This document shows, in pieces, positions 17,441 to 59,267 of a stretch of 64,000 nucleotides of DNA; the stretch's first letter is position 1; every line of letters starts with the position of its first letter. The translations under genes and the position numbers were made by a program. The notes under the pieces are model-generated. The model was not told the DNA's origin. It ran no database searches and saw only the letters and a list, made by a program, of their open reading frames with translations. Origin of the DNA: Iphione sp. A-MEVVRFRX5 (lineage: Eukaryota); NCBI GenBank assembly GCA_976226885.1, contig OZ320314.1, positions 104,036,001 through 104,100,000 on the forward strand. Direction: 5' to 3'.

Positions 17441-19760
17441 GCGTTTCAATGAAGGAAAGCACCGGCCTTCATTCGCATAATTCCGGCTCACCACATTCCA
17501 AGACACTCCATAATTCTAATGGCCAAACATGGAATAAACTTGTCAAATAGATTTCTTCCCTTATTGGCAATTCCCGTTTGATAATCCCAATAGTTGCCAC
17601 AACAGGAGGGTGCAGGTTAAATGGACAGAAGTGATCGATTTGACTAGACCATTACCAATCGTAAAACTACACACCTCCTTGACAGCCTTTCACTCAGCCA
17701 AGCCTGCTGTTCTCGGACACAGTGCAGCACCATTAGAATCACGTATGATGAACAGAAACCCATGTAAACCGCGGAACGTATGTTTTACTTAAATGTACCA
17801 GGTTTCAAATTAATCTTTTCATCTTTTTACATTTTGACTATAGGCACTGTAAGAAAGAGGCTACTTGCTACTTGTCGGTCAGAGTTCCCTGAAATACATG
17901 TAGACGTTTATGACAAAGGACCATTGTTACTTCGCCTTGCATAGCTTTCGTAAATAACACAGGGCATTTTAACCCAGAAACCGTCTACTAACTGGTTAAC
18001 GTCCATGGAGAAAGCTGTCATTGATGAATAAGGATATCTTTTTAGAAAAACATTAGTTAGAATAAAACCGGTGACAAAGGAAGTAAAATGAATTTTTGAA
18101 GCACATGACAACACAATGATTTTTTGCTAAAATGACAGAGATTATCACAATGGGCCAGATGCTGGTTTCTAAACTATAATGTTGCAATTATAAAATCAGC
18201 TTTTGGCGACGACTATTACAGTACGCGAAAGGCGGTTGTGAAAGTCATATATATACCTGTATGTGTATATATGTATACCTAAGGGAAAATTGTCTTCAAA
18301 ATCAGATCCACAAATCGTTGGAAAGACGGACAATACAAAGCAAAATGTGTCAGTATGCCAGATCTCACAAATGCAATTTATTGTTCTAAACCCAAATGAC
18401 GCCGAATCCAATAATAGGCGGTACACTTTGGCCAAAAGGCTTTGCTTGTGTCGATTATGAAGGTTACACTAAACGTGAAACAGCCATAGACTTAAAAGAC
18501 AAAATATGGTGACTAGGATCAGTCTATAGATTTAGGCAAAATCATGACAAACATTCTTCATGAAAGATTTGGTAACTTATATATATAATAACGCACGACG
18601 AGCATGACAATCATGGATTGCCATAGTTTCAATTTGAACGTTCTTTTTATACATCTGGTGAATTGTTGACAGTAAGGGGCACACTAAAAACATCTTGTAT
18701 TTATGTGAGCAGCAAAATTCGGTAACAAGGTCAGTTTACAGCTTAATCTGACAGAATTAGTAAAAAGAGACATTCTTAATTAAGAGGTTTTGTGTGTTGG
18801 TGGCGAAATTGATATTGTTTTATTTAGCATATGAAATGGACCTTTTCATTATTTAATAATTTTTGTTTAAAAAGTATGACATATATCTTTCAATAGAAAA
18901 TGATATCAATTGTAAACGTCCCCTTTGACATTTGACATTCGCAAAGGACATTTGTTTCACTATTTTTACACATCTTCAAATATATGTATAGTGTTTCTAT
19001 TGTTTTATATACCCATTCAAGGGCATTTAAAAATGTTTGGCTTTTTGTTTGCTTTAGTGTTGGAGAGTAAATCGATATGCCTTGCAATGAATCGTATTTC
19101 TCTCACAAATTACACGATGCAGAAAATGTAACCTATCCGGGTTTCCGGGGAGGAACTGACGAAAAAATAATGAGCAGTGTGATAAAAGCATGCGAGTTAA
19201 CAATGGGGTCCTACCAGGGTAACAATGTTTCAATCTTGAATGCATGCCCTTACCTGACATGTCCTTCCTCTTTTTTGCTGTTCAGTATTACACATTTGTC
19301 TTTTTTCTACATGTTGCAGGTGAGAGCAAGAAGAAGGACTAGTCCTACCTTTAGAACTGCAACAGCTACAGGTTCCATAGCAACAAAAGCAACGTCTGCT
19401 TTTACTACTACTCATTTATTGGCACCACCAGCACAAGCACCAGTACCAAAGATTCAACAGAATCAGGCCATCTTGTCTGGCTGCTAGCTCAGAAAATGGA
19501 GAAGTGATTAACTATAGATGCTGTACGAATTACAGCAGCAACCAATGGGAATATCTGCCCGGTAAGTGGAGACGGTCTGACACCAGGGAAAAATTCCCGG
19601 CCTGTCTCTGCGCGCGACCCATTTGGCTGACTTAAATACACCTCTACTGGGTGTGGGGTCTTGTTGTGGGACAATCGAACCACCAACCCAGACCGGAATG
19701 ACTTGCCCATCCTAGGAGCTGGGGTCTCTCCCAGGTTTGTACACCCCACAACGGTTCAAC

Positions 19761-21953
19761 ATGGCTTCACTACGGCTGGCGCTGTACGTGCTGCTGCAGG
19801 TGGTCACGCTGCTAGTTCCGCGGCCACCGCTAGGTTTCGCCTGCGTCTTCCCGGAGTACCTGCAGTCGGGCGACGGTTTCGGTACGGAGATCATGCGGCA
19901 GTGGCATTGGCACATCATGGCTGGCTATCACGAGAGCGCGCACGCCTACACGTACGTGGTCAAATTCGAGGGCAAGATCATGAACGTGACGGTGCGCGGG
20001 TCATCACGCAAGAAGCGCAAGGACCAGCCCTACACGCGCGAATGCTTCCAGCAGGTCAGCCCCGGCCGCTACATCGCCATCCACCGCGAGCCCGAGCAGC
20101 AGCGCGACAAGTTCGTCTGCGTGCAGTTCCTGAAGCGCAGCGACGTCGTCGTTCAGCTGCGCGAGTCGCGCCTCAAGAAGCGGCCCGACCCGACGCTGTG
20201 CTGGGACGAGAACCTCACTCTTGACCGCTGGCCCATGGTGAACCGTATCGACATCTTCAAGGCACACATTGACTGCCCGCTGACGGACGGCTTCAACATG
20301 AAGATCTACGATAAAGTATCTGGCATGGGCATCTGCGATACCTTTGACGGCGAGACGCGCCTGGAGAGCGAGTGTATGGTCGGCGAGGGACTGTTCTTCC
20401 GCTACCGCCACGAGAACTGCATTCCCACGGGGATACACATGCGCACCAACCAGCGCACGTACTGTATTGCCAACTGGCAGCAGGGCAGCTACACCTTCTC
20501 CATAATTCGACACGACCGCCTCAATCACCAGTGGTGTTTCCGCTTCCCCACCAAGCACGGGTCGCGTTTTGGCGCCACGCTCTTCCGCAACGTCTACTGC
20601 GACGAGGAGGACTTCCCGTCCGACTCCTTGGACTATCTCGATCTGTCCATCACCAGCGACACTCCCCGCCCGCTCAACTCGCTCTGTATGGACGACTTCG
20701 ACGCGTGCAACATGTGGTCGAATCCCTGCAAGCACGCCGGCTCCGTCATGCATCTCACGTGCGCCCGCACGTGCCGCATCTGCCGCGACACGCGCCCGGC
20801 GACGTGTACGTTACCCGGTCGCTTCCACGGCCGATGGCTGGACACGTCGGACGTCGGACGTCACGTCGTCGACATCAGCGACATGTTCGTCACGGAGGCC
20901 ACCTTCGCCCGCATGCACTGCATCCACTGGCAGGACGGTCACTCCTACGGCGAGCCGGAGAACTACGAACAGATGCTGGTGACGACCTTCCAGAACGGCT
21001 GCCGGCCGCGCTACCAGTGCGTACAGCTACAGAAGCGCAACCCGTCCATCCTGCGCTACAAGCTGAGCCAGAGCCAGATCTGGCCGTTCGAGGAAACCAG
21101 CGGCATCATCGTCGACTGCTCGTCGTTCACCTACCGCGACGACGACGCGCCGCTGCGCGACCGCTTCCGCACGCGCCACTTCAAGACGCTCATCTCCATG
21201 TCCGAGCGGATCTACGTCAGCTGCGAGTTACCGCACATCTTTGAGTTCACGGTCATCTACGCGGACGGCACGAGTTGTAACGGCACGCTGGAGCAGCCGC
21301 CCATCCTCAGCCGCACCAAGATGGTGATGCACCTCCCGCGCTGCGCCGGCAAGGTGGAGGTGCAGACGTTTGCCTGTCTCGACTCCAACCGTCACGGCGG
21401 TTACGTCAGCGACCAGATGATCGTCACCGAGTCGCAGGACACGTCGAGCGAGCTGCTCTGCTGGCTACTTCCGGCCGTCCCCGGAGACGTCTTCTACCTG
21501 CTGCCTGCCTCGCAGTGCAACGAGGGCGCCAAGGACAAGATCACCGGTTTGCAGCTCAGTCCCATCGCCATCTTCCACAAGCACCGGCCCCCACCTCAAG
21601 TGGTGGTGGTGCAGCCCAAGACGGGCGATCAGAGCCCCGGGGCCGACTCGGGCAGAGACTCGGCCGCCGCCGCCGCCGGCGACCACCCGGGGGGCAGCGG
21701 CTTGCAGAATGCCTTGAAGAACGCTCAGGAGGACGCCGCCGATGGTGAGGTGGGCCTGGACAATGAGACCGCCGGCAAGCGGGTGGAGGAGCAGAGTGAC
21801 AAGCAGAGAGACAAGTCCCCGCGCTCATCGCCCGACGAAATGAGCGGAGGGAGCGGTGGTAGACAGAGCCTGAGTGGAGCTTGTGCTATACTAGCACTCC
21901 TGGCGGGCTTGTGCCCGTCGTTGGGACTTATACACAGGAGGGCGCCCGGGTGA
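19761..21953 (+). CDS. Intronless secreted or cell-surface cysteine-rich protein (730 aa): signal peptide, two related extracellular halves flanking an ShK-type domain, low-complexity stalk, hydrophobic C-terminal GPI/TM segment; function unknown
   Basis: Only long ORF in the window (738 codons from the GTT/TTG-type start used by the track; first ATG at 19761 in context TCAACATGG, stop TGA 21951-21953). Strong G/C third-position bias. Hydrophobic N-terminus MASLRLALYVLLQVVTLLVPRPPLGFA followed by CVFP. Repeated module starts CVFP (aa28), CPL (aa172), CTLP (aa349), CELP (aa488); FVCVQFLKRSDVVVQL parallels YQCVQLQKRNPSILRY. N-glycosylation sequons NVT, NLT, NGT, NET. Tail SGGSGGRQSLSGACAILALLAGLCPSLGLI. 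From memory it resembles invertebrate DUF7042/DUF7043-type proteins; not verified. Confidence 0.9.
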   Translation: MASLRLALYVLLQVVTLLVPRPPLGFACVFPEYLQSGDGFGTEIMRQWHWHIMAGYHESAHAYTYVVKFEGKIMNVTVRGSSRKKRKDQPYTRECFQQVSPGRYIAIHREPEQQRDKFVCVQFLKRSDVVVQLRESRLKKRPDPTLCWDENLTLDRWPMVNRIDIFKAHIDCPLTDGFNMKIYDKVSGMGICDTFDGETRLESECMVGEGLFFRYRHENCIPTGIHMRTNQRTYCIANWQQGSYTFSIIRHDRLNHQWCFRFPTKHGSRFGATLFRNVYCDEEDFPSDSLDYLDLSITSDTPRPLNSLCMDDFDACNMWSNPCKHAGSVMHLTCARTCRICRDTRPATCTLPGRFHGRWLDTSDVGRHVVDISDMFVTEATFARMHCIHWQDGHSYGEPENYEQMLVTTFQNGCRPRYQCVQLQKRNPSILRYKLSQSQIWPFEETSGIIVDCSSFTYRDDDAPLRDRFRTRHFKTLISMSERIYVSCELPHIFEFTVIYADGTSCNGTLEQPPILSRTKMVMHLPRCAGKVEVQTFACLDSNRHGGYVSDQMIVTESQDTSSELLCWLLPAVPGDVFYLLPASQCNEGAKDKITGLQLSPIAIFHKHRPPPQVVVVQPKTGDQSPGADSGRDSAAAAAGDHPGGSGLQNALKNAQEDAADGEVGLDNETAGKRVEEQSDKQRDKSPRSSPDEMSGGSGGRQSLSGACAILALLAGLCPSLGLIHRRAPG
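20685..20783 (+). other. ShK/ShKT six-cysteine domain within the CDS (aa309-341)
   Basis: CMDDFDACNMWSNPCKHAGSVMHLTCARTCRIC: C-x6-C-x6-C-x10-C-x3-C-x2-C with CxD, CxxW and CxxTCxxC, the ShKT hallmark motifs. Confidence 0.85.
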
Positions 21954-23339
21954 TGATTGGACCCCTGGGCCAGGACGCGGCCGGGATCAGATGCTAATGA
22001 CTGGAGGACCCGTGAACATGGATGATTCACTGGAGGGAGGGGTCAAAGTGGCTCAAAGATTATTTTCTCAGTTGCCTCCTAGCTCCAGTGATATTTCTGA
22101 GTACAAAGAGGAGGGAAGAAAAAGGCATATTTTACAGCTATATTTTGAAAGTTTGTTCCCGTCACAAGACCCCTTAATAATTGAGAGGCATTTGCATGTG
22201 TGTACGTAAAACGAAAAGCGGCACTTAAAGAGGCATTGGTCATGTAAACTTGTCTGAGACAATAGGGAAAAAAGATATTTTCAAGTAGTTTTAAGCAATG
22301 TTTTCCTAACATCATCAACTTACAGTCGTAATGGAGTTGTCTGTGAACAGTTTAAAAAGTGATTCTCAACATGCAGGGACTAATGTCAGTTTCATGTTTC
22401 TCATGGGCCAACCATAGTCTCTGCACTGAAGGCAGTCTGTTCTGTCACATGCTTATTTATTGCGCGTTTTATTGATGTTATCCCTCCCTATTTCAGCGAT
22501 TTGGTTTGACAAGAGCATTGAAGTGTAAATATCAAAGCCTTCTACTCAGAAATATCAGCTAGGTTAAGACCACCATTCTTGTTGTAAACATAAAAAAAGA
22601 CCATCCAGTATCTCAATTTTGTGTAAAGCATTGCCTTGAGTAGTCTGCGATACATTAGTACATGTATCTAATCAGGGGCTTTCATTGAGTAAGGATGTTG
22701 ACCTGTAGCTGTTGGCACGTAGTGTACCTGACCTTCCACTGTGAACATTTTACTACGGGGTCGAGCCCACCGTCCCCGAGGGGATTTGGAACATGGCTGA
22801 GCTCTATCAGACCAGGGAGGGATATATGCCTACCCCCCCCTCCCGACTGGCTCCTTGGAATCGTATCCAACTCAATTTGGAATCGTCTGGATCGCTGCCA
22901 GGATTGGTTTATCAGCAACTCACTATCGGGTGCTTTTTATTGGCGGCGATCACGAACTCCAAAAGATGAGGAGGAGGAGGAGCAGGAGCCTGCGCTCAAC
23001 ACGGACACAAACACTGCACATTCACACAGACATACACACACGCACACACCCAAGGACTCTGCTACAGAGACGTCCGTACTATATACAGAATACACAAAGA
23101 TTTCACGTACGGACCCACACATAGCATACACATCTTCAATGGGCTCTACGGCCAAGGAGAAGAAACAGACAAACGGCGCCATCTAGAACATACCCCTGCA
23201 CCAGGTGCAAGATCACCACGTAGTAGTTGGATTGGCAGACCACCCAGTGCCATAAAGTGAGAGAACTCTCTGAGGCGGGGTTCATCGCTAGCAATTAGAA
23301 CTTGGCATTTCGACCGTGCGGTCCCTTCCCCGCCGGCCA

Positions 23340-45364: not shown

Positions 45365-48300
45365 CTGTTAAACTGGCATATTGAATATCTTAGTTTGAGA
45401 AATAAAACTGACCTATTAAAGGAATACATGCATGAGCAGAAAATTGTGACATGTATATGTTTGTTAGGGGACATAGTTAACAAAGAAAATACCAGATGCC
45501 TTAGTTGTGATAAATAGATATAGTTTTTTTGGCAGGAAAGGCAAAGAGAATCGGAAAAGTTGGGGCCGGGATATCAGTATACTATAAAAGAAAGTTAACT
45601 AGCAAAATGACACTCTCGCTGAATATGTCTCATACATCCAGTGCCTTGGAATGCATCTGGTTTTCTATCCAAGTTAACAACTATACAAAAACATTTGTAT
45701 GTGTCTTGCACTGCCCCCTTTCTGGTAACTTGAGTGATGCACTACAAACTCTTGAGGGAAATATAGTCAGTATGCAGAAACAATACAAAATGTTTGATAT
45801 TAATGGGAGACTTCAACATTATTATGTTAAAGAAAGGTATGGTTTCTGAAAAATTAGTAATGGACCTGCTAACACAGCATGGTCTAAACCAACATATAAA
45901 ACAAGCAATGCATGTAATGAGTAGAACAGCGATGCTATTAGACTTGGTAATATCTAACGCTGAATACAGATTATGGTACATTGGTAGGGATCAATGTGAT
46001 ATGAGTCATCATTTTATGATATCATGTGAGGTAAGAGGTGTTAGTATTCATAACCTATCAGAATATGTCATGGTAACGAGCAAAACCAAATTTGAAGAGC
46101 CATTTTTTATTGAAAAATTGAAGAAAGAAATAGTGTTAATTTCTGTCAAGGTACTGTTAGTAAATATGAGAAGGTTGCAAATACAAATACTAGTGATCAA
46201 ATACTATGAGCAGTTAATCCTAAGGAAAAAAGGTTAATCAAAGAACCATGTAATGTTTGGTTTAATGATGATCTATGCATACTACTAAAAGACAAAGATG
46301 TTATACATAAGAAAGCCTTGGATTTAAAGAGATTAGTAGATTGGTTGTTTTTTAAAATGTTAAGAAAGCATGTGATGTATACAGTTCGAGAGTTAAAAAG
46401 AAATTATATAGTCAAACAAGCATCTTTGTGAAAACATGATGCAAAAAAATATTGGTTTTACATAAAGAATACCCTAGGTTATAGTAAAGGACAGTCCACA
46501 GAAATTACCTTAATGTCATTGGCAAATGTATTACTCAGAAACTAGGCAGAGAGGAATTTGCTGAAAATGATGTCCTTTGTGGAGAAATGTTATGTGACTT
46601 TGTAACTGTGAAAAGGAAGTTGTCACAGCAATTTATAGATTTAGCAATAGTAAAGCTTCTTGTCTAGGTGATCTTCCACAAAAGATGGTTAAAGGTTTTC
46701 TGGAGTGCCCAGAAGTGTTGGTGAAACTATTTAATGACAGTTTTATAGCAAGTGATATTCCACTTGAATGGAAAAAATTTACGGTTGTACCTTTGATTAA
46801 AAGCAAAAACCCCACCAAACTGGGTGATTTTTGCCCAATAAATTTGTAAACATTATTGTGAAAATACAGGAACATGTAGTTTATGGAAACATTTAGGATC
46901 AATTGGAAAAACATACCTTTTTAAGTTAAAGTTAATATGGATTTAGACAAAGATACTCTACTGAGCTGGCAATAGTTGATCTAATTCTATACACCAGGCA
47001 TTTAATAGAGGGGAAGTAGTAATCAGTACCTTTATTGACCTGCAAAAAGCATTTGATTCTGTTAATCAAAACATGTTATTAAATTATAAAAAGGACCTCT
47101 TTTTTTCTTGATCTTTATAAACTCTTTGCCAGAGTCACAGTCACAAGTATTTATGCATGCTGATGATGTAGCCTTAGTTAGTACAGGGGAATCGATGGAA
47201 AAAGTAGTAAAAAAATTGAATCAAGACATGAACAGTATTGTAGTAATTGCTTGGGTTCAATAAAGAACTGACAACTTTGAGTCCCAGTTTCAAACCATAT
47301 TTATTCCCCAAGGGGCTTATATTTATATCAGAGGCATAATCACATGATCATGCAGGACACATCCAATCAGCTTTGAACAATCACTGAAAAAGTAACACTG
47401 TTGCTAATCCAGGAAACTCCTAACTTAGCTCCCCCAATCATGTTAAACCACTATAGCAGTCCCTGCTGCAGGCCAGCTGTGGTGCCAAAGCCCATATGCT
47501 AAGAACCAATCTCATGCAAGGAATATAGTTACAAAATGTCCTTGCAAACATCCAGGGTTGCCTGCGGTGTCACAGGTGGTGCAGGTATGCTTGCACTTGG
47601 CTTAGTACAGCTATACTCTTTCTGCAGGGCCCATGCATCTTGGATGTGGTGCCACAATTCAACTAGTGTTCTGCATGCTCCAGGACCCTGACCTGTGGTG
47701 CCACAGGCTAGGGTCGCCAAGTACACTCCCTACTTTCTACAGTATGATGAAGTGGAGTGAAAGAATGAAAATTTTGATTAATCAAGCAAAGACACAATGT
47801 ACAAAATTTCATTAAGGCTGTCCTAAAGAAAAGATTCACAGCTCAATTGAGCTGCAAGACATTAAAATCAAGATTGTACACAGCATGCCTTATTTGGGAA
47901 TTATACTTGATGAAAAGTTAACAATGACATTAAACCAAATAAAATAATAAGGAAATTATATGCTAAGTATAGTCACTTCAAGGTTACATGAAAATACCTT
48001 GATCAGTGCACTGCATTGAGGATAGCAAATACTGTGGTGTTAGCAGTGAGTAATTATGCACTTGCGGTAAACACAAACACATCAAGTAGACATTTCAAGA
48101 AAATTATCCAAGCCAGAAAGAGAGTGATAAACAGTGCCTTTGGGTACAACAAGCTATCAACTACAGATGAAAGAAAAGATTTCATTGTGCGACGGGATAT
48201 AAGGTTATAAATACTTGGTTATAAAGTTGCTCAAAAACAAGAGCTAACAGGTCATATAACAAGGACGTTAAAAAAATAAGGTAATAGAACTCCCAAGGCC

Positions 48301-59131: not shown

Positions 59132-59267
59132 NNNNNNNNNNNNNNNNNNNNNNNNNNNNNNNNNNNNNNNNNNNNNNNNNNNNNNNNNNNNNNNNNNNNN
59201 NNNNNNNNNNNNNNNNNNNNNNNNNNNNNNNNNNNNNNNNNNNNNNNNNNNNNNNNNNNNNNNNNNN
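59132..59267. other. Assembly gap (136 N)
   Basis: Run of N. Confidence 1.

What the first reader, a model, noticed from the sequence alone, without database searches (positions are those of the whole stretch)
19761..21953. Uncharacterised cell-surface protein with A-B-ShK-A'-B' architecture
Seen in sequence: after the signal peptide come module A (aa28-165), module B (aa172-300), one ShK-type domain (aa309-341), diverged copies A' (aa349-480) and B' (aa488-607), a Gly/Ala/acidic stalk and a hydrophobic tail. Established: ShKT domains occur in potassium-channel-blocking toxins and as accessory domains of astacin proteases, tyrosinases and peroxidases. No catalytic motif of those enzymes (e.g. 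HExxH) is visible here. Inference: an internally duplicated, non-enzymatic receptor or ligand-binding surface protein presenting a toxin-like domain at its centre. This is the best candidate for undescribed biology in the window.
Basis: partly seen in the sequence, partly recalled or inferred. Interest (0 to 1): 0.7.

Follow-up and report, generated by a model that had tools for sequence, protein, structure and literature searches.

The report
Four-barrel surface protein with ShK insert
A conserved gene of worms and molluscs encodes four predicted barrel-shaped domains with a small sea-anemone-toxin-like module in the middle; the protein is likely tethered to the cell surface and likely works in cell adhesion or recognition rather than as a toxin or enzyme.

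Summary
The architecture is real. The 730-codon single-frame ORF (19761-21953, +) has A~A' and B~B' by profile comparison (98% and 95%), while A and B do not match each other. The central six-cysteine module is ShK-type. AlphaFold models all four modules as lipocalin-like (calycin) beta-barrels; B is closest to the pocket-less adhesin Tp0751 (Z 9.9). One detail is wrong: an HExxH string is present (aa57-61), though unconserved. The protein is no orphan. It belongs to the Pfam DUF7042/7043/7044 family, with 471 related clusters, named relatives in annelids, molluscs and a nemertean, and eight paralogous loci in this genome. It is collinear with the ShK-less, multi-exon, arthropod-type members, so it is a variant with an ShK domain inserted between the two halves. 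The ShK module lacks the Lys-Tyr dyad and is neutral. Best reading (about 0.5): a likely GPI-tethered, non-enzymatic adhesion or recognition protein, with ShK as a clamp or specificity module. From memory, Drosophila Undicht (septate junctions) belongs to this family; I could not test that. It is not APCDD1: a true APCDD1 gene lies elsewhere in the genome. No paper naming these DUFs was found. New variant of a known, uncharacterised family.

The parts
19761..21953 (+). Single-frame coding sequence, 730 aa plus stop
   Evidence: GC3 0.86; 69-70% identical homologues
19761..19841 (+). Predicted signal peptide, aa1-27
   Evidence: hydrophobic N-terminal helix; conservation starts at C28; no signal-peptide predictor was run
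19842..20255 (+). Barrel A, aa28-165 (DUF7043/DUF7044-like; predicted lipocalin-like beta-barrel)
   Evidence: VIA Z 7.7 to a salivary lipocalin, 6.2-6.5 to APCDD1
19929..19943 (+). HESAH string (aa57-61); unconserved, not regarded as a zinc site
   Evidence: 5 of 136 rows have any HExxH; coil in the model
20007..20021 (+). Basic loop RKKRK (aa83-87), matches a furin-type R-x-K/R-R pattern
   Evidence: the pattern is kept in 2 of the 3 closest homologues and in none of the 4 more distant ones printed
20274..20660 (+). Barrel B, aa172-300 (DUF7042-like; predicted compact beta-barrel)
   Evidence: DUF7042 over cut-off in 9 of 15 homologues but not hit in the query; VIA Z 9.9, rmsd 2.5 over 96 residues to Tp0751
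20685..20783 (+). ShK-type six-cysteine module, aa309-341, without the Lys-Tyr dyad
20805..21200 (+). Barrel A', aa349-480 (DUF7043; carries a G-x-W motif at 357-359)
   Evidence: W in 129 and G in 130 of 136 rows; VIA Z about 6 to barrels
21222..21581 (+). Barrel B', aa488-607 (DUF7042-like)
   Evidence: VIA Z up to 7.2 to small barrels
21594..21860 (+). Disordered Gly/Ala/acidic stalk, about aa612-700
   Evidence: pLDDT under 50; 5% identity family-wide
21861..21950 (+). C-terminal hydrophobic tail with no cytoplasmic domain; likely GPI-attachment signal
   Evidence: 121 of 136 rows have such a tail; 117 of these end within 12 residues of it; GPI itself is inferred
19260..19319 (+). Candidate splice acceptors (AG ending at 19285 and 19319); would put an intron in the 5' UTR
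   Evidence: pyrimidine tract plus AG by a crude scan; untested

Best explanation
The gene encodes a non-enzymatic protein of the DUF7042/7043/7044 family, predicted to fold as four lipocalin-like beta-barrels in two duplicated pairs, likely GPI-tethered on a flexible stalk, that likely binds protein partners on neighbouring cells or matrix, with the central ShK module likely acting as a disulphide-locked clamp or specificity element rather than a toxin. Shown by calls: the ORF, the duplication, family membership, collinearity with ShK-less relatives, the lack of a dyad and of a conserved catalytic motif, and the lack of a cytoplasmic tail. Predicted: the barrel folds and a well-defined A-B-ShK unit. 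Inferred: GPI anchoring, binding through outer barrel surfaces, and a role in adhesion or junction assembly. Recalled and untested: that Drosophila Undicht, a GPI-anchored septate-junction protein, belongs to this family.
For: Fold: the N-half model has pLDDT 93 and pTM 0.90. Barrel B's best match among 48,161 chains is Tp0751 (Z 9.9, rmsd 2.5, 96 aligned; next 7.7), described as an adhesin with no hydrophobic pocket that binds through its barrel surfaces (PMC5040251, abstract and passages). Topology: 121 of 136 family rows end in a hydrophobic segment and none has a tail over 30 aa after one, which suits a tethered binder rather than a signalling receptor. The best-conserved polar residues (R126, Q132, R200, E202, R261, R417; 90-96%) sit beside hydrophobic strand positions, with no conserved His, which reads as interface rather than catalysis (inference). 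ShK is dispensable for the scaffold: the arthropod-type members are collinear (96.2%, 423 columns; 58-60 bits against 5.7 for the best of 200 shuffles) but lack it, and one own-genome paralogue lacks it. It is the best-conserved module in the 3 closest homologues (0.88 against 0.68-0.82), which suits a fixed partner or packing surface. Circumstantial for Undicht: it is 72,646 Da with a signal peptide (PMC13280006 supplement rows), in the size range of the arthropod DUF7042-44 clusters (619-652 aa), and is cited as GPI-anchored and needed for septate junctions (PMC8390003 passage).
Against: No functional datum exists for any ShK-type member. The Undicht link comes from memory; no call connected Undicht to these domains, and the primary paper was not held. 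Even if the link is true, the orthologues of the arthropod proteins are more likely the multi-exon genes elsewhere in this genome, so this gene would be a distant paralogue whose role may differ. A shared barrel fold shows no function: apart from Tp0751, Z values are in the common range, and barrel A is closest to ligand-binding lipocalins. I had no coordinates, so pockets were not measured. The query's tail ends in HRRAPG, and several family members end in a Cys-rich stub, so a plain transmembrane anchor is possible. ShK's extra conservation holds only for the 3 closest homologues; in the next 15 it equals A' and B (0.49 against 0.50 and 0.47).
Confidence: 0.5

Rival explanations
1. A surface lipid- or Wnt-binding decoy working like APCDD1: one or more barrels hold an acyl chain or another hydrophobic ligand and titrate a lipidated signal.
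For: All four modules match calycin barrels. A matches ligand-binding lipocalins (Z 6.7-7.7) and APCDD1 ABD2 (Z 6.1-6.5), and B also matches APCDD1 (Z 6.0-6.1). APCDD1 is an animal surface protein with duplicated barrels, only one of which binds lipid (PMC10193966, abstract and sections 6-9). A' keeps a G-x-W motif.
Against: APCDD1 ranks only 23rd and 25th in the wide search. There is no profile similarity to this genome's own APCDD1 exons (best 1.65%, shuffles up to 6.7%), and a true APCDD1 gene lies on another contig. B's best match has no pocket.
Confidence: 0.2
2. An endogenous tethered channel modulator: the barrels and stalk hold the ShK module at the membrane, where it regulates a potassium channel on the same or an adjacent cell.
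For: It is a true ShK-type module, retained by strict pattern in 122 of 136 rows and very conserved among close homologues. Lack of the dyad does not exclude channel activity: MMP23's domain modulates Kv1 channels without it (PMC6409789 passage).
Against: The dyad positions hold Ser and Val, a K-[YF] pair occurs in only 6 of 122 modules, and net charge is 0 (family median -2). The module is flanked by barrels on both sides. The furin-type site lies inside barrel A and would not free it. ShKT domains are common accessory parts of multidomain proteins.
Confidence: 0.12
3. A diversified recognition family for non-self or matrix ligands (innate immunity, mucus, biomineral or cuticle interfaces) with no link to junctions.
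For: Nine loci in this genome at 24-33% identity to the query, variable stalks including a mucin-like one in an ORF of at least 1158 codons, and 471 clusters at 50% identity. The ShK-fold peptide aurelin is antimicrobial.
Against: The paralogues pair with sequences from outside this genome in old subfamilies. The query's barrels are 68-82% identical to its closest homologues, unlike fast-evolving immune receptors (general knowledge).
Confidence: 0.15
4. A surface enzyme with an accessory ShK domain, such as a zinc protease through HESAH or a barrel-type cyclase.
For: An HExxH string exists at aa57-61. ShKT domains mostly accompany enzymes. Some barrel hits are enzymes.
Against: HExxH occurs in 5 of 136 rows and lies in a coil, not a helix. 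No His reaches 55% conservation. No enzyme family in Pfam at E up to 10.
Confidence: 0.03

Closest known systems
Pfam DUF7044-DUF7042-DUF7043-DUF7042 proteins of arthropods, annelids and rotifers (e.g. Ridgeia protein P0223; Atlas clusters of 619-652 aa)
   Same: Same four-module order, collinear over 423 columns; N-terminal hydrophobic segment in P0224 and C-terminal hydrophobic segment in P0223; Pfam assignments.
   Different: No ShK module between the halves. Their genes here are in about 10 pieces each, against one frame for the window gene. About 19% identity.
Drosophila Undicht (udt, CG10217, Q9VCI4); family link recalled, not tested
   Same: Cited as GPI-anchored and needed for septate junctions and as a candidate Kuzbanian substrate. 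Similar size and a signal peptide.
   Different: No call showed homology. If real, the window gene would be a distant, ShK-bearing paralogue, not the orthologue.
Tp0751 (pallilysin), Treponema pallidum, PDB 5JK2
   Same: Best structural match of barrel B (Z 9.9, rmsd 2.5, 96 residues); a pocket-less lipocalin-fold adhesin.
   Different: Bacterial, single barrel, 7% identity: a fold analogue only.
APCDD1 (PDB 8E0P/8E0R/8E0W)
   Same: Animal surface protein with duplicated, disulphide-linked beta-barrels; Z 6.0-6.5 to A and B.
   Different: Two like barrels rather than A-B-A'-B', a single-pass membrane anchor with a small cytoplasmic domain, no sequence-profile match, and a separate gene in this genome.
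ShK/ShKT domain (ShK toxin, MMP23 domain, aurelin)
   Same: Six cysteines with C-x3-C-x2-C at the end, and the same 10-residue spacing between the third and fourth cysteine as ShK.
   Different: Embedded between barrels, no dyad, neutral to acidic, not a free peptide, not attached to an enzyme.

Membership tests
DUF7042/7043/7044 four-barrel family | DUF7043 and DUF7044 over Pfam cut-off | tested here: met
   64.4 and 27.4 bits against a cut-off of 27
DUF7042/7043/7044 four-barrel family | DUF7042 in the B modules | tested here: inconclusive
   not hit in the query; over cut-off in 9 of 15 homologues at the same place
DUF7042/7043/7044 four-barrel family | Collinear with classical members over all four modules | tested here: met
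   96.2%, E 2.4e-9, 423 columns; 58-60 bits against 5.7 for the best shuffle
ShKT domain (PF01549) | Six cysteines in ShK spacing and a profile match | tested here: met
   C309, 316, 323, 334, 338, 341 each 95-99% conserved; query 20.0 bits against a 20.9 cut-off, 9 of 15 homologues over it; 11 of 12 PDB hits are ShK-fold
ShKT domain (PF01549) | 1-6, 2-4, 3-5 disulphide pairing (recalled) | not testable with these tools
   no coordinates were returned
ShK-type potassium-channel toxins | Lys-Tyr dyad | tested here: not met
   equivalent positions are Ser and Val (dyad as defined in PMC6409789); 6 of 122 modules have K-[YF]
ShK-type potassium-channel toxins | Small, free, cationic secreted peptide | tested here: not met
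   internal module of a 730-aa protein, net charge 0
ShK-type potassium-channel toxins | Channel block | not testable with these tools
   needs electrophysiology
APCDD1 | Sequence-profile similarity to APCDD1 barrels (PF14921) | tested here: not met
   no PF14921 hit; module profiles against two own-genome APCDD1 exons at shuffle level
APCDD1 | ABD-type barrel fold | tested here: inconclusive
   Z 6.0-6.5, tied with or below unrelated lipocalins
APCDD1 | Lipid-binding pocket and Wnt binding | not testable with these tools
   no coordinates, no assay
Lipocalins / calycins | Up-and-down antiparallel beta-barrel | tested here: met
   predicted; the top rows are such barrels
Lipocalins / calycins | N-terminal G-x-W motif (recalled signature) | tested here: inconclusive
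   A' has it (129-130 of 136); A keeps only the Trp (117 of 136, Gly 0 of 136); B has G-G-[YF]; no lipocalin Pfam hit
ShK-bearing zinc metalloproteases (astacin, MMP23) | Conserved helical HExxH zinc site in a protease domain | tested here: not met
   string present but in 5 of 136 rows, in a coil; all-beta model
GPI-anchored proteins | C-terminal hydrophobic signal with no cytoplasmic domain | tested here: met
   hydropathy only
GPI-anchored proteins | Omega site | not tested
   the planned census did not run because the script machine was lost
Undicht-like septate-junction proteins | Homology to Drosophila Undicht | not testable with these tools
   no call returned the Undicht sequence or its domains; the link is recalled

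The most novel reading that the evidence does not exclude
Lophotrochozoans took an Undicht-type four-barrel junction protein, inserted an ShK domain at its centre of duplication and expanded it as single-exon genes into a family of membrane-tethered 'prototoxins'. These would couple cell-cell junctions to potassium-channel control, as Ly6 proteins such as quiver/sleepless do in insects (recalled), with each subfamily's ShK module choosing its own partner.
Probability: 0.12. Interest if true: 0.75.

Novelty: new variant of a known kind. Interest (0 to 1): 0.42.

Why it matters
It gives a fold and a working model to an unstudied invertebrate surface-protein family: two duplicated pairs of calycin-type barrels on a likely GPI tether. 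If Undicht belongs here, the model also supplies a structural frame for a known septate-junction protein, and names candidates for junctions and nerve barriers in annelids and molluscs. It adds a non-enzymatic host to the known ShK-domain architectures and offers a natural with-and-without comparison for what an accessory ShK domain does. The architecture is already in automatic annotations and no function is shown, so interest is moderate.

Tried and rejected
Expression: no RNA holder was listed for 19300-22700; this is no evidence either way. Self-binding: two copies of aa27-345 gave no verdict (score 0.00, alignment not used). Foldseek against the PDB gave nothing meaningful for the full model (3 matches at E up to 0.001, TM up to 0.12) or the half model (0 at E up to 0.001). 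Sequence searches of the PDB found no relative of the barrels. The ShK stretch alone matched Notch EGF repeats weakly (E 0.017); rejected, since the cysteine pattern and family profile point to ShK. APCDD1 orthology was rejected, as was HESAH as a zinc site. Fused partner domains: none beyond DUF7042-45 and ShK in 35 long or divergent members, apart from two hits with no stretch passing in P0124. Neighbours: 103 of the 109 other stop-to-stop frames of 85 aa or more in the window were scanned and gave no Pfam hit (six over simple repeats were left out); short exons would be missed. Literature: no paper holds DUF7042/43/44 or PTHR22255, PF23069/70, IPR055470/71 or LP06548p (these labels were partly recalled). 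No paper holds APCDD1, Drosophila, septate and GPI together. Tying Undicht to the family failed. The primary paper and FlyXCDB were not held. Supplements of four papers gave no domain data. The exon-based search reached annelid-type relatives but no named insect protein. Earlier scan notes: nothing. A second profile search returned the same 15 proteins. The tree is the quick version, with long branches, and was used only for subfamily grouping.
Full report
Observation. The window carries one open frame from ATG 19761 to TGA 21953 on the + strand, 730 aa. It stands out as a GC island (0.63 against about 0.41) with GC3 of 0.86. Three database proteins are 69-70% identical over 93-97% of its length. 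It is a real, conserved gene. The coding part has no intron; acceptor-like sites end at 19285 and 19319, so an intron may lie in the 5' UTR (crude scan). No other long frame scanned in the window hits Pfam (103 of 109 frames).

Architecture. Plain BLASTP of the two halves is not significant (E 0.056), but profile comparison is. On 22 aligned sequences, A/A' scores 96.2%, B/B' 80.5% and AB/A'B' 96.9%, against at most 1.5, 1.2 and 6.9% in 20 column shuffles each. On 136 rows (the proteins of 560 aa or more among 173 held; 37 shorter ones dropped), A/A' is 98.3%, B/B' 94.6%, A/B 0.6% and A/B' 26.6%. Pfam gives DUF7043 (64.4 bits, two stretches), DUF7044 (27.4) and ShK at aa309-341 (20.0, cut-off 20.9). 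DUF7042 is missed in the query but passes in 9 of 15 homologues, and ShK passes in 9 of 15. The family profile finds 12 PDB sequences, 11 of them ShK-fold peptides aligned to the central module. One statement does not: an HExxH string is present (HESAH, aa57-61). It is in a coil, only 5 of 136 rows have any HExxH, and no His reaches 55% conservation, so it is not taken as a zinc site.

Fold. AlphaFold on 22 sequences gave mean pLDDT 77.7 for the whole protein, with four strand-rich blocks, a disordered stretch at aa614-709 and terminal helices. On 127 sequences, aa27-345 reached pLDDT 93.2 and pTM 0.90. Foldseek found nothing meaningful. VIA-align over 48,161 chains matched each module to up-and-down beta-barrels of the lipocalin/calycin type. 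B matches Tp0751 at Z 9.9, rmsd 2.5 over 96 residues, two Z units above the next row. A matches a salivary lipocalin at Z 7.7 and APCDD1 at 6.2-6.5. A' and B' reach Z 6-7. Only the Tp0751 match rises above the common range. Tp0751 is described as an adhesin with no hydrophobic pocket (PMC5040251; abstract and passages seen). No coordinates were returned, so I could not measure pockets.

Family. A profile search of 1.84 billion representatives found 471 clusters at E up to 0.001, 237 at 1e-30. Of 30 clusters looked up, 7 carried a taxon name: Paralvinella, Capitella (two), Plakobranchus, Pomacea, Lineus and Octopus/Argonauta. All are called hypothetical, uncharacterised or by domain. The Atlas has a 70-member cluster automatically named 'ShKT domain-containing protein' with DUF7043/7042/7044, mostly molluscan, next to arthropod clusters with DUF7042-45. 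This genome has nine loci of the type, including this one. Eight hold the match in a single frame of 640-1169 codons; one is split over two overlapping frames. They group with outside sequences in several old subfamilies (quick trees). The genome also has a second type: DUF7042 exons at further places, with two genes each in 10 pieces. An exon of one led to full-length relatives, including a Ridgeia protein, with the order DUF7044-DUF7042-DUF7043 and a second DUF7042 stretch, and no ShK. These are nearest to arthropod clusters of 619-652 aa (score 0.96). They are collinear with the window's family over 423 columns (96.2%; 58-60 bits against 5.7 for the best of 200 shuffles), and their mid-linker has no six-cysteine module. 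So the window gene is a variant of an older four-barrel protein with ShK added at the seam of the duplication. That the insertion is derived, and that the single-frame genes arose by retroposition or intron loss, are inferences.

The ShK module. A strict six-cysteine pattern is found in 122 of 136 rows. By eye, most of the 14 misses have a shorter or longer version; one own-genome paralogue lacks it outright and another is degenerate. The spacing between the third and fourth cysteines equals that of ShK. The positions of the Lys22-Tyr23 dyad, regarded as essential for Kv binding (PMC6409789, passages), hold Ser and Val. Only 6 of 122 modules have K-[YF] in that loop, and net charge is 0 (family median -2). 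The same paper warns that lacking the dyad does not exclude channel activity. Non-cysteine identity of the module is 0.88 in the three closest homologues (barrels 0.68-0.82), 0.49 in the next 15 (barrels 0.35-0.50) and 0.21 family-wide (barrels 0.22-0.31). That fits a subfamily-specific packing or binding surface, though the margins are small.

Anchor. 121 of 136 rows end in a hydrophobic 15-mer; 117 of these end within 12 residues of it, and no row has a hydrophobic 19-mer followed by more than 30 residues (one row was a paralogue I had cut at 684 aa). This is the layout of GPI signals (general knowledge). Some subfamilies end in a Cys-rich stub and the query ends in HRRAPG, so a short-tailed membrane helix is possible. 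The omega-site test did not run.

Mechanism. The best reading is a tethered, non-enzymatic binder. It enters the secretory path, is likely GPI-linked, holds two disulphide-braced barrel pairs above a flexible stalk, and likely binds partner proteins or matrix through outer barrel surfaces, with ShK as a clamp or specificity finger (0.5). From memory, Drosophila Undicht belongs to the DUF7042-44 (PANTHER PTHR22255) family. I saw only that it is Q9VCI4/LD32918p, 72,646 Da with a signal peptide (PMC13280006, supplement rows), and that it is cited as GPI-anchored, needed for septate junctions (PMC8390003, passage) and a candidate Kuzbanian substrate (PMC12822584, passage). PMC12487505 and PMC11467184 gave only the reference line. 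The primary paper was not seen. No call tests the link, and the multi-exon genes would be the likelier orthologues. Rivals are an APCDD1-like lipid or Wnt decoy (0.2), a non-junction recognition family (0.15), a tethered channel modulator (0.12) and an enzyme (0.03). APCDD1 (PMC10193966; abstract and sections 6-9 read) is a fold analogue only: the genome has its own APCDD1, whose exons do not match any module profile.

Novelty and verdict. The domains and even the ShK-plus-DUF combination are in automatic catalogues, but searches of the held library found no paper naming DUF7042/43/44 or the related identifiers; subscription journals are largely missing from it. The contributions here are the four-barrel fold, the A-B duplication, the ShK insertion relative to arthropod-type members, and the contrast between single-frame and multi-exon genes. 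It is a new variant of a known but unstudied kind. The boldest reading not excluded, a tethered prototoxin linking junctions to potassium channels, has probability about 0.12.

Noticed in passing
L006:1225-3329 (G000:C15:30.46 Mb): A paralogue lies in two overlapping frames (405 and 361 codons stop to stop), broken in barrel A': a frameshift or an assembly error.
   Followed up: partly
L008:1429-3348 (G000:C1:28.78 Mb): A single-frame paralogue that has no ShK module at all; a natural with-and-without comparison inside one genome.
   Followed up: partly
L003:1249-4515 (G000:C2:40.15 Mb): A paralogue with a very long Thr/Ser-rich mucin-like stalk; the frame is 1169 codons and runs past the locus end.
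   Followed up: no
L007 and L009 (G000:C22:26.95 and 26.98 Mb): Two paralogues 30 kb apart on the same strand, one with a degenerate ShK module; likely a tandem duplication.
   Followed up: partly
G000:C2:99.10 Mb, C17:63.75 Mb, C10:74.9-75.2 Mb and C10:103.3 Mb (L011-L019, L027, L029, L030): Multi-exon classical DUF7042-44 genes without ShK; three DUF7042 exons cluster within 300 kb on C10. These are the better candidates for orthologues of the arthropod proteins.
   Followed up: partly
L031, L032 (G000:C11:85.71-85.72 Mb): A true APCDD1 gene (PF14921, 193 and 84 bits) with two large coding exons.
   Followed up: partly
window 20007-20021: A basic RKKRK loop in barrel A matches a furin-type pattern and is kept only in the closest homologues; it could be a cleavage site or a glycosaminoglycan-binding patch.
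   Followed up: partly
family alignment, query positions 259 and 280: An optional cysteine pair co-varies almost perfectly (79 rows both, 55 neither, 2 with one), a likely optional disulphide in barrel B.
   Followed up: partly
L002:1324-3429 and relatives P0045-P0061: One subfamily ends in a hydrophobic segment followed by a Cys-rich stub, which suggests a palmitoylated membrane helix instead of a GPI signal.
   Followed up: no
window 45767-46234: A frame that by eye resembles a decayed LINE endonuclease fragment; no Pfam hit.
   Followed up: partly
window 59132-59267: A run of N, far from the gene and without bearing on it.
   Followed up: no
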